From: Mustelus asterias
Lineage: Eukaryota
DNA length: 64,000 nucleotides
Reading direction: 5' to 3'
Assembly: GCF_964213995.1 (NCBI RefSeq)
Contig: NC_135817.1
Location: 79,546,001-79,610,000 of the forward strand
Positions 18,965 to 22,184 of the stretch are shown piece by piece; position 1 is the stretch's first letter; each line of letters begins with the position of its first letter. The notes below the pieces were generated by a model. That model made no database searches and had not been told where the DNA came from. It saw only the letters and a program-made list of their open reading frames with translations. The position numbers and the translations under genes were made by a program.

Positions 18965-19065
18965 GTTCTGGACTCACTGGTATTAAGACAGAGGAAATAG
19001 CTGAAGTAAAGATGGAGACTGAATTCCGACAGGACTCTGGGTATGAGGTCCATCATCAGAAGCTG
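18965..19065 (+). CDS. APP: APP coding exon (exon 16 equivalent; beta and alpha sites, Abeta 1-17)
   Basis: acacag| ... |gtgagt; 101 nt; (G)[33 protein letters not shown]. Confidence 0.98.
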
Positions 19066-19984
19066 GTGAGTGAATTGCTGGCATGGACTGCGATTAAATA
19101 TTTGAAAAGCATTCCTAATAATTTTGGAACCTCAATTCAATGAGGGGTAACTTAATCTTGAAATAGTACTGTTAATGCAAGGTGGCAGATATCCCTGTTC
19201 CTGGATCCCCTTGCTATAACTGACCAAACCACTGTGAATTGTCTGGTGATGTGGCCCACAAAAGCTCAAGCAACTTGTGCTATTTGCACTTATTCCTCCC
19301 TTTATGCTGTTCAATTTGTGGCTGAAGATTTAGAAAATGGTATTTTGGGGAGTCATGCTGTTTTAGTCGACAAACGCTGAGTCAGATTTGAGTCAGTGAG
19401 TTTATGATGTCGCAGATTAGTGGCAATACATGGTAACCACCAAGTAAGGAGTATGATCACACATACCACTTTACTGCCTGGGTGCAGCTGCAAAACATTT
19501 AAGAAGCTAACACTATCCATGGCAAATTTGACCGCTTGATCAGTGCACCTGCCACTGGACTCTATATCCACCCTCACCATACCAATGCACAGTGGCTGCT
19601 CTATATACAATCTGCAGGATGCACTGCAGCAACCCAGCAAGGTTACTTCAATAGCACATTCCTCTCTTGCAACTCCCACCATTAAGAAGAGAACAACACC
19701 AAATCTCTCTCCATCCTGAATCAGACGTGTTTGGCATTTCATTCTCATTTGATTGGACCGAGTGTAACACATCCAAGTTTGCTGGCGATACAAAGCTAGA
19801 TAATCATGCGAGCAACGGGGAGAATGGAAAGAGACTGAAAAGGGACATAAACTGGTTAAGCGATTAAGCAAGAAGGTTAAGATGGAATGTAATTTCACGA
19901 AGTGTGCGGTAATAGGGGTGACGAGTGAATATAACTTTGTTCAAGGTAGGATACAGGCAACAGAATTTTGGATATCCCCGAATT

Positions 19985-20590
19985 TTGGCAGGTAGAATAT
20001 GGGAGGCCAGCCAGCATTGTGTTGGAATAGCCAAACCAAGAGGTAACAAAGAACTTTGAGCTCATCCAAAACTGTACTGCCTGTATCCTATCAAAATTCA
20101 TACCAAGTCCATATTGCTCCTGTGCTTGTTAATCTACATTGGCTCCCAGTGTAGATCAAATCTCTCATTCTTGCTTTCAAATTCCTCCATGGCTTCGCCC
20201 TTCCCTTTCTTTATCATCTCCTCCAGCTCCGTCTCATCCCTCCTTCAATTCCAGCATTCCAGATTTCCATTGATCCACCAGTGACAGATGTTCCTTTAGC
20301 TGTCAAGACCCCAGTGCTGGAACTCTTTCCCCTCTTTCCCCCCCCCCCCCCCCCCCCCCCCAAAATTTGGGCAAGACAGAAAATCTGATGGACCATTTAA
20401 AGGTCTGTTGAGTCAGATGGGAATATCCGGTCTTAGGGTGCACAATTGGAGAATCCGGCCCTATATCTCCTCCTTTAACATTCTCTTTAAAACTCTTTGA
20501 TAAAGCTTTTAGTCGTCTGTCATAAAATCTTCATATATGGCTTGGTATTAAGTTTTATCTAATAACATTGCTGTGAAATATTTTGGGACA
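19985..20590 (+). mobile_element. Decayed L2-type LINE 3' fragment
   Basis: ctacattggctcccagt...ttcaaattcctccatggc (LHWLP...FK.LHG) remnant and L2-like tail. Confidence 0.55.
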
Positions 20591-21237
20591 ATTATCCACT
20601 TTGGTAGGAAGACTGAAAGAGTAGAATTTTTTTTTAATGGGTTACACAGAAGGATTTGGGGGATCCTTGTACACAAAACATAACTCACAGTTTTTCACAT
20701 TATCTGCCAATTTTTTGCTCCCTGAATTAACCGATCAATATCCCTTTGCAAAGTCTTTGTATTCTCCTCACAACGTGTTTTCCTAACAAAATTCTACTGT
20801 TCCAGTCCTCCTATCAAAGTGAATTTAAAAGCATTAAATAAATGCAAGGTTGGACAGTGACCCTGTTGAAAAAAGAACTAAAAAATAGATGCTTTCCCCC
20901 CATTTTTGTCAGTCCTGTTAAGCTTTTAAAAATTGCAGAGACAAAGAAGAAAACATTTCTGATATCTGAAGTATAAAATGTTGTTACTCCCTGCATTAGT
21001 GCTTACTGTTCCAGTTCATTCCAGTTTGAAGCAATAGGGGTTTTTCTTTAAGCTATTTACAGGTACCAGATGGGAACCCTGCAGGCAAATGGTTAAATTG
21101 GGCACCTCAGTGTTAATTTTGATAATTAAACTGGCTGTCAAATTCCGCAGTGAATCCAAAATAGGCATGATCACATGCTTTTTATTTTAAGAACCAAGTA
21201 TTCTAAATGCCTTGGCGCAGTTGAGAATAATTGTAAT

Positions 21238-21602
21238 NNNNNNNNNNNNNNNNNNNNNNNNNNNNNNNNNNNNNNNNNNNNNNNNNNNNNNNNNNNNNNN
21301 NNNNNNNNNNNNNNNNNNNNNNNNNNNNNNNNNNNNNNNNNNNNNNNNNNNNNNNNNNNNNNNNNNNNNNNNNNNNNNNNNNNNNNNNNNNNNNNNNNNN
21401 NNNNNNNNNNNNNNNNNNNNNNNNNNNNNNNNNNNNNNNNNNNNNNNNNNNNNNNNNNNNNNNNNNNNNNNNNNNNNNNNNNNNNNNNNNNNNNNNNNNN
21501 NNNNNNNNNNNNNNNNNNNNNNNNNNNNNNNNNNNNNNNNNNNNNNNNNNNNNNNNNNNNNNNNNNNNNNNNNNNNNNNNNNNNNNNNNNNNNNNNNNNN
21601 NN
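21238..21602. other. Assembly gap (N run) in APP intron 16
   Basis: Run of N. Confidence 1.
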
Positions 21603-22037
21603 GGGGTTTGTGGGCGTGTGTGTGTGGGCATGTGTGTCAGTGTGGGACGTGTGGGTGTCGGGGGCATGTAGGTGTCTGTGTGTCTCGAAGATTGCCCTTA
21701 TTTGACAACCAGTCCAAGTAGGGTGAGTAATGAGAATCCTCGCCATTTTAAAAATATACCTCGACTTGTGTGTACAGTAATTGAATTCCTAGGCAATATG
21801 GTAAACATTCAGATCTGCACATGCACAGTACTGTTTAAATAAACTCAAAACTGCAATCTTGTGGTTTGTGAAATTTCACAGCAGGTCTCAAAAGATTAAA
21901 TATCCTGCATGGTTGAGACTTAATGCAACAAAGACAAGCAGCTGCTTTGCTAATATCTGTTGCAATGTGCTATCACATGAATGTTGTGCAGGAAGTGTTA
22001 AGTTTGGGTTATATCTATGTGCAATTATTCTTCGTAG

Positions 22038-22184
22038 GTGTTTTTCCCAGAGGATGTTGGATCAAATAAAGGAGCTATCATTGGTCTCATGGTTGGAGGC
22101 GTCGTCATAGCGACAGTGATTGTCATCACCCTGGTGATGCTGAAAAAGAAGCAGTATACATCTATCCATCATGGGGTTGTTGAG
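22038..22184 (+). CDS. APP: APP coding exon (exon 17 equivalent; Abeta 18-42, transmembrane helix)
   Basis: cttcgtag| ... |gtaggt; 147 nt; [49 protein letters not shown]. Confidence 0.99.

What the first reader, a model, noticed from the sequence alone, without database searches (positions are those of the whole stretch)
19015..22112. Amyloid-beta carries the protective 'Icelandic' A2T residue together with A21P, H6Q and D1E
Seen: spliced exons 16 and 17 give Abeta42 = [42 protein letters not shown] (E1 19015, T2 19018, Q6 19030, P21 22047). Residues 22-42, the gamma sites and the 47-aa cytoplasmic tail match human as I recall them. Known: human A673T (A2T) lowers BACE1 cleavage and aggregation; A21 is the Flemish-mutation position at the end of the KLVFFA core, where proline should break beta-sheet; H6 is a Cu/Zn ligand. 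R5, Y10 and H13 are human-type, unlike rodents. Inference: this is a naturally low-amyloidogenic Abeta. Caveat: I recall a similar ET...FFP sequence in electric ray APP, so it may be elasmobranch-wide and partly known.
Basis: partly seen in the sequence, partly recalled or inferred. Interest (0 to 1): 0.75.

Follow-up and report, generated by a model that had tools for sequence, protein, structure and literature searches.

The report
Cartilaginous-fish amyloid-beta with a fixed proline
This is the ordinary shark amyloid precursor protein gene: its four amyloid-beta differences from human are shared across sharks, rays and chimaeras, the 'Icelandic' threonine is also common in bony fish, and only the proline at position 21 is peculiar to cartilaginous fish and likely slows clumping somewhat.

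Summary
In detail: exons 16 and 17 of a single-copy APP gene give E1, T2, Q6 and P21, and nothing else in C99 differs from sheep or bird APP. It is not a special allele. All 21 named cartilaginous-fish species retrieved carry E1, Q6 and P21, 20 carry T2, and 12 have an identical Abeta42. E1, T2 and Q6 also dominate in the ray-finned fish retrieved (T2 in 85 of 104 proteins), so they are likely old fish residues and the tetrapod D-A-H set is likely the derived one. P21 occurred only in cartilaginous fish. In published yeast nucleation scans D1E, A2T and H6Q, alone or paired, are close to wild type. A21P scores -1.06 +/- 0.10 in one scan (stops about -3) and is not significant in another. The peptide is therefore predicted to nucleate somewhat slower, not to be non-amyloid, and P21 may even raise gamma-secretase release. 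The ray sequence and the fish-type beta site are already in print. I found no test of the shark peptide.

The parts
18965..19065 (+). APP exon 16 (human numbering): beta-secretase site and Abeta 1-17
   Evidence: AG/GT ends, 101 bp; aligns to human APP 656-688; single match in G000
19003..19014 (+). P4-P1 of the beta site, EVKM, human-identical
   Evidence: EVKM in 20 of 21 cartilaginous-fish species, ELKM in Narke
19015..19017 (+). Abeta E1 (human D1), P1' of the beta site
   Evidence: codon GAG; E in 21 of 21 cartilaginous-fish species and 98 of 104 ray-finned proteins
19018..19020 (+). Abeta T2 (same residue as human A673T), P2' of the beta site
   Evidence: codon ACT; T in 20 of 21 cartilaginous-fish species, 85 of 104 ray-finned proteins and 2 of 167 tetrapod proteins
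19030..19032 (+). Abeta Q6 (human H6); removes the H6-D7 dyad
   Evidence: codon CAG; Q in 21 of 21 cartilaginous-fish species and 88 of 104 ray-finned proteins; HD dyad reported absent from bony and cartilaginous fish (PMC3271017)
22038..22184 (+). APP exon 17: Abeta 18-42, transmembrane helix with gamma sites, start of the tail
   Evidence: AG/GT ends, 147 bp; Pfam Beta-APP PF03494 at 54.2 bits, cut-off 25; one APP match plus two APLP-like matches in G000
22047..22049 (+). Abeta P21 (human A21), the residue seen only in cartilaginous fish
   Evidence: codon CCA; P in 21 of 21 cartilaginous-fish species, in 0 of 104 ray-finned and 0 of 167 tetrapod proteins
25091..25192 (+). APP exon 18 coding part: cytoplasmic tail with YENPTY, and the stop codon
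   Evidence: Pfam APP_amyloid PF10515 at 66.3 bits; identical to sheep and kittiwake
2610..18344 (+). Upstream APP exons (E2 domain and juxtamembrane linker), at about 2610, 3014, 3405, 5176, 6468, 11650 and 18291
   Evidence: tblastn of shark APP proteins P0009 and P0389 against the window; boundaries approximate

Best explanation
This is the single APP gene of a shark, carrying the standard cartilaginous-fish Abeta, in which E1, T2 and Q6 are likely old fish residues with little predicted effect on aggregation and P21 is a residue seen only in cartilaginous fish that likely slows fibril nucleation moderately without abolishing it. Shown: an intact gene with canonical splice sites; four differences in C99; the same four residues across sharks, rays, skates and chimaera; E1, T2 and Q6 common in ray-finned fish; P21 absent from all bony vertebrates retrieved. 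Inferred: (1) BACE1, which cartilaginous fish encode, still cuts after EVKM, since an acidic P1' is kept, probably somewhat less well because of Thr at P2'. (2) Gamma-secretase cuts a human-identical transmembrane helix, and P21 probably loosens the juxtamembrane LVFFA 'brake', so release need not be low. (3) The released peptide keeps the 29-42 core and should still form amyloid in vitro, with a longer lag and probably a different fibril fold. (4) Human A673T is most simply a return to a residue that fish commonly have, not a protective invention of sharks.
For: Sequence and splice sites. Single copy. Distribution: 21 of 21 named cartilaginous-fish species have E1/Q6/P21, 20 of 21 have T2, 12 of 21 have an identical Abeta42. 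Ray-finned proteins: E1 98, T2 85, Q6 88, A21 104 of 104. Tetrapod proteins: D1 167, A2 165, H6 163, A21 167 of the 167 that parsed, out of 177. Nucleation scores in PMC7943193: D1E +0.02 +/- 0.05, A2T -0.17 +/- 0.07, H6Q -0.25 +/- 0.05; A21P -1.06 +/- 0.10 against stops at -3.0 and -3.55. Pairs in PMC12153979: D1E+A2T -0.00 +/- 0.33, D1E+H6Q -0.10 +/- 0.28, A2T+H6Q -0.20 +/- 0.39. The C-terminal core dominates nucleation in this assay. BACE1 and BACE2 are listed for chimaera, catshark and skate. P1' is generally acidic and Thr occurs at P2' in three natural BACE1 substrates. The beta cut site is reported conserved only in sarcopterygians, and the HD dyad absent from fish.
Against: No measurement of the four-change peptide was found; the estimate adds single effects measured on a human background in yeast at a non-physiological fusion. 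The two scans disagree in sign for A2T and H6Q (+0.54 +/- 0.46 and +0.76 +/- 0.46 in PMC9674652). D1E+A21P scores -2.36 +/- 0.95 on 64 reads, and several other A21P doubles are near dead but noisy, so the slowing could be larger than moderate. An E. coli assay that tracks fibril stability finds L17-A21 the most sensitive stretch; its A21P value was not retrievable. Polarity is inferred from living species only: sturgeons and paddlefish mostly have A2 and L6, no coelacanth, lungfish, bichir or gar was retrieved, the ray-finned sample is biased to the sturgeon query and counts isoforms, and the one lamprey protein seen has no recognisable Abeta. BACE1 was not located in this genome (uninformative).
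Confidence: 0.75

Rival explanations
1. One reading: a naturally protected, low-amyloid Abeta, in which T2 cuts BACE1 processing, Q6 removes a metal ligand and P21 breaks the KLVFF strand, together nearly preventing amyloid.
For: A21P lowers nucleation in PMC7943193 and D1E+A21P scores -2.36 +/- 0.95. Human A673T gives about 40% less Abeta in cells and about 5-fold lower Vmax on peptide (review PMC6151801). L17-A21 matters most for fibril stability in PMC12478104. One roughly 245-year-old Greenland shark brain was reported without neurodegeneration (as cited in PMC11794736; its APP was not examined here).
Against: Three of the four changes are near neutral and are common in teleosts. A21P is not significant in PMC9674652. 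The 29-42 core is intact. PMC3660159 predicted amyloid potential for all APP sequences in its set, which included Narke. Disrupting LVFFA is reported to raise Abeta output.
Confidence: 0.15
2. P21 matters for processing rather than for aggregation: like Flemish A21G, it would undo the membrane-bound YEV-LVFF hairpin of C99 and so tune gamma-secretase turnover and AICD/p3 release; any effect on amyloid is a by-product.
For: PMC5719365: the LVFF beta structure is a default brake, A21G destabilises it and raises total secreted Abeta, and LVFFA deletion is cited as giving at least 10-fold more Abeta. P21 is fixed in 21 of 21 species inside an otherwise near-invariant C99, which suggests selection on the precursor.
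Against: No A21P processing data were found (0 papers). The paper places the critical residue at F19, which is unchanged. This reading is compatible with the best explanation and adds a cause that was not tested.
Confidence: 0.35
3. Assembly or annotation artefact, or a diverged paralogue or pseudogene rather than true APP.
For: Exon 17 had no contig coverage in the 4 runs laid.
Against: C99 is identical to two annotated shark APPs. Exons 16 and 17 are single-copy as APP in G000, and the other two exon-17 hits are APLP2-like and APLP1-like by sequence. An X1 contig confirms exon 16.
Confidence: 0.01

Closest known systems
Cartilaginous-fish APP (RefSeq/UniRef: Mustelus asterias, Heptranchias perlo, Scyliorhinus, Rhincodon, Callorhinchus milii; Narke japonica O57394)
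   Same: Abeta42 identical in 12 of 21 named species; C99 identical to Mustelus and Heptranchias. The Narke sequence was already aligned and discussed in PMC3271017 and PMC3660159.
   Different: Nothing in Abeta against those 12. Narke differs by R5Q and E22K, six other species by R5Q, Amblyraja by R5H, Rhinoraja by S2.
Human APP A673T (Icelandic, Abeta A2T)
   Same: Thr at P2' of a beta site whose P4-P1 (EVKM) is human-identical.
   Different: Here it is the clade's normal state and common in ray-finned fish, it sits beside E1 rather than D1, and no effect on cleavage has been measured in this context.
Human APP A692G (Flemish, Abeta A21G)
   Same: Same position, at the end of the LVFFA segment that restrains gamma-secretase output.
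   Different: Proline rather than glycine. Nucleation score A21G +0.47 +/- 0.46 against A21P -0.46 +/- 0.53 in the same scan. Fixed in a whole class of animals rather than a rare disease allele.
Rodent IAPP prolines (recalled, not from a call) and mouse/rat Abeta R5G/Y10F/H13R
   Same: A lineage-wide natural variant of a human amyloid peptide; for IAPP, prolines in the amyloid segment.
   Different: Rodent IAPP has three prolines in its core (recalled). Here a single proline lies outside the 29-42 core and the measured effect is partial. The window keeps the human R5, Y10 and H13.

Membership tests
Vertebrate APP orthologue (not APLP1/APLP2) | Abeta (Beta-APP, PF03494) segment before and within the transmembrane helix | tested here: met
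   PF03494 at 54.2 bits on exon 17 alone, cut-off 25; exon 16 matches human APP 656-688
Vertebrate APP orthologue (not APLP1/APLP2) | Cytoplasmic tail with YENPTY (PF10515) and upstream E2 exons | tested here: met
Vertebrate APP orthologue (not APLP1/APLP2) | Separate APLP1 and APLP2 loci exist, so this locus is not one of them | tested here: met
   Two weaker exon-17 matches on other contigs with APLP2-like and APLP1-like transmembrane exons, assigned by resemblance to proteins
Cartilaginous-fish-type Abeta | E1, T2, Q6, P21 with human-type 22-42 | tested here: met
Icelandic-type protective APP allele | Thr at P2' of the beta site | tested here: met
   codon ACT at 19018
Icelandic-type protective APP allele | Rare derived change on a D1-A2 background | tested here: not met
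   T2 in 20 of 21 cartilaginous-fish species and 85 of 104 ray-finned proteins, mostly beside E1
Icelandic-type protective APP allele | Reduced BACE1 cleavage and reduced Abeta output | not testable with these tools
   Needs an enzyme or cell assay; the subsite-weight paper (PMC3005788) was not held
Non-amyloidogenic natural orthologue of an amyloid peptide | Loss of fibril nucleation | tested here: inconclusive
   Single and double mutant scores point to a partial loss driven by A21P; the four-change peptide was not among the rows found

The most novel reading that the evidence does not exclude
All cartilaginous fish have fixed a single proline at Abeta 21, inside an otherwise near-invariant C99, and it acts as a class-wide beta-breaker: the peptide is released freely but hardly fibrillises. 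That would make shark Abeta a natural non-amyloid counterpart of human Abeta and one possible contributor to the lack of neurodegeneration reported in a very old shark. Human A673T would then be a return to the fish residue.
Probability: 0.2. Interest if true: 0.6.

Novelty: already known. Interest (0 to 1): 0.3.

Why it matters
As a gene, little: it is the standard shark APP and the same Abeta is in public annotations for 12 of 21 species compared. Two points have modest value. First, the protective human A673T residue is common in fish, so it is compatible with normal APP function and with a wide range of lifespans, and it should not be read as a shark longevity adaptation. Second, P21 is a clean marker of cartilaginous fish at the Flemish position and offers a natural experiment that separates Abeta release from Abeta aggregation. 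It is cheap to test, and I found no test of it in the searchable literature.

Tried and rejected
Read support for exon 17: none of 4 runs covered it (the tool drops human-like contigs, so this is no finding); a second laying gave no result, so P21 stays unchecked at read level. The three other runs also gave no APP exon contigs, so splicing was not seen in RNA. Polarity by tree: no ancestral-state result was obtained, so polarity is argued only from the distribution in living species. The third homologue search, meant to reach coelacanth, lungfish, bichir, gar and amphibians, returned reptiles, birds, mammals and one salamander. Lamprey P0235 showed no recognisable Abeta, so it cannot polarise P21. 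The PF00026 search of G000 returned pepsin/cathepsin-like exons and did not identify BACE1; this says nothing about its presence. D1E was not found under that ID in the 2022 scan. Sequence-string search of the 2021 supplement found nothing because it is indexed by position. The PMC12153979 and PMC7943193 supplements were cut when stored, and only 15 of 22 A21P rows were seen; the PMC12478104 supplement is a PDF and was not read. Not held: Iijima 1998, Moore 2014, Li 2010, Maloney 2014; these may already state some of what is inferred here. Paper searches were uninformative. Earlier scan findings: none. No structure prediction was run, since it cannot settle amyloid kinetics or protease rates.

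Full report
Observation. The window holds the 3' half of an APP gene on the + strand. Exon 16 (18965-19065) and exon 17 (22038-22184) have AG/GT ends and join in frame with exon 18 (25091-25192) to give a 99-residue C99. Against human PDB chains, exon 16 shows D1E, A2T and H6Q in Abeta and exon 17 only A21P. Over 99 of 99 C99 positions the window differs from sheep and kittiwake APP at exactly those four places. Exon 17 passes Pfam Beta-APP and exon 18 passes APP_amyloid. The genome (3.68 Gb) has one match for exon 16 and one strong plus two weak matches for exon 17; the weak ones look like APLP2 and APLP1. One contig of run X1 spans exon 16 without a difference in it; exon 17 was not covered in any of 4 runs. 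The animal is a shark by its APP exons, which match Mustelus slightly better than Heptranchias, the only two compared.

Distribution. A search with exon 16 returned 770 proteins, of which the best 120 were listed; cartilaginous fish filled the top. Taking one protein per named species, 21 of 21 sharks, rays, skates and the chimaera Callorhinchus have E1, Q6 and P21; 20 of 21 have T2 (Rhinoraja has S); 12 of 21 have an Abeta42 identical to the window. A search with sturgeon Abeta (best 120 of 2097) gave 104 ray-finned proteins, isoforms counted separately and three unnamed: E1 98, T2 85, Q6 88, A21 104. This sample is biased towards the query. Sturgeons and paddlefish mostly have A2 and L6, and eels are mixed. 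Of 177 tetrapod-type proteins parsed (10 dropped for lacking or gapping the segment): D1 167, A2 165, H6 163, A21 167. So E1, T2 and Q6 are shared by cartilaginous and many ray-finned fish and are most simply old states, with D1-A2-H6 settling on the tetrapod side; this is inference from living species, and coelacanth, lungfish, bichir and gar are missing. P21 was seen only in cartilaginous fish. It cannot be polarised, because the lamprey protein seen has no recognisable Abeta.

What is in print. PMC11117577 (parts 1-2 of 4 read) states that Abeta-homologous sequence is confined to jawed vertebrates and that the beta cut site is conserved only within sarcopterygians, citing Moore 2014 (not held). 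PMC3271017 (parts 2-3 of 7) used the Narke sequence, noted its high similarity to human and reported the H6-D7 dyad absent from bony and cartilaginous fish. PMC3660159 (first part, passages and section 7) plotted Narke Abeta and predicted amyloid potential for all APP sequences in its set. The original electric-ray paper was not held. I found no paper that links shark T2 to A673T or discusses A21P: searches (2 papers; passages of one read, listing only of the other; 0 papers; 3 papers, none on the point by listing or passages). The library lacks most subscription journals.

Aggregation. Published yeast nucleation scores for human Abeta42 give a direct, if indirect-background, test. PMC7943193 (passages; supplement 6 parts 1 and 3): D1E +0.02 +/- 0.05, A2T -0.17 +/- 0.07, H6Q -0.25 +/- 0.05, A21P -1.06 +/- 0.10, with stops at F19 and F20 scoring -3.0 and -3.55. 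My sum of the four is about -1.5, half-way to dead, and about 70% of it comes from A21P. PMC9674652 (passages; supplement 7 rows): A2T +0.54 +/- 0.46, H6Q +0.76 +/- 0.46, A21P -0.46 +/- 0.53, against F20P -1.69 and L34P -3.56. PMC12153979 (supplement rows only): the three N-terminal pairs score -0.00, -0.10 and -0.20 with errors of 0.28-0.39; D1E+A21P scores -2.36 +/- 0.95 on 64 reads; other A21P doubles scatter from +0.8 to -4.6 with errors near 1 or more (15 of 22 rows seen). These rows come from the same library as the 2021 scan and are not independent of it. PMC12478104 (passages) finds L17-A21 the most sensitive stretch for fibril stability, which leaves room for a larger P21 effect on yield than on nucleation. 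Net: P21 likely slows aggregation; the other three likely do little; the 29-42 core is untouched.

Processing. BACE1 and BACE2 are listed for chimaera, catshark and skate (PMC13389413 supplement rows); I did not locate them in this genome. P4-P1 is EVKM as in human. The review PMC6151801 (passages) says P1' is generally acidic, lists Thr at P2' in three natural substrates, and gives A673T effects of 10-20% predicted, about 5-fold lower Vmax on peptide and about 40% less Abeta in cells. The shark site is therefore likely cleavable and perhaps somewhat slower; how E1 offsets T2 is untested. A proline at 21 could do the same; that is inference.

Verdict. This is the normal cartilaginous-fish APP, already in databases and partly in print. 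The 'Icelandic' residue is widespread in fish rather than a special protection. The one distinctive residue is P21, fixed in every cartilaginous fish retrieved, with a measured partial effect on nucleation and an open effect on processing. A review cites one very old Greenland shark brain without neurodegeneration (PMC11794736 passages), but nothing ties that to APP. Interest 0.3; the bold reading (freely released, non-fibrillising Abeta across the class) has probability about 0.2.

Noticed in passing
P0090, P0093 (Myotis lucifugus APP records); compare P0094 (Myotis davidii): The little brown bat records carry T at Abeta 2 on an otherwise human-type Abeta, i.e. the exact human A673T change; they are the only 2 of 167 tetrapod proteins with it, and M. 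davidii has A. Could be real, a polymorphism or an assembly error.
   Followed up: no
P0043 (Narke japonica): Carries E22K (the Italian familial-disease change, label recalled) next to P21, plus R5Q; the related Narcine has E22. E22K scores +0.53 +/- 0.08 in the 2021 scan. A single old cDNA, so it may be a clone error.
   Followed up: partly
P0285 and P0286 (Acipenser ruthenus): Two sterlet APP proteins differ at Abeta 2 (T and A) with the rest of Abeta identical: a natural pair for testing the A2T effect.
   Followed up: no
P0022-P0039, P0043, P0049, P0052: Position 5 varies in cartilaginous fish: Q in stingrays, devil rays, electric rays and, apparently separately, Heterodontus; H in Amblyraja.
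   Followed up: no
Marsupial APP (e.g. P0083, P0071): Marsupial Abeta differs from placental at 24 (M), 25 (N or S) and 39 (I), the last inside the amyloid core.
   Followed up: no
P0420, P0421 (Zootoca), P0108 (Prinia), P0498 (Pleurodeles): H6 is not invariant in tetrapods: Q in Zootoca, R in Prinia and Pleurodeles.
   Followed up: no
G000:C25 about 14.43-14.82 Mb (L004, L006-L009, L011, L013-L015): A dense tandem cluster of pepsin-family exons, roughly ten genes, in line with the pepsinogen/cathepsin E clusters described for sharks in PMC13389413.
   Followed up: no
L003 (G000:C1309:83270-86398): The APLP1-like transmembrane exon lies on a separate contig with tandem repeats on both sides.
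   Followed up: no
window 41320-42690 and 34012-34719: LINE-type reverse transcriptase fragments downstream of APP; 41698-42246 hits Pfam RVT_1, and similar broken pieces recur at 34-35 kb and 44 kb.
   Followed up: partly
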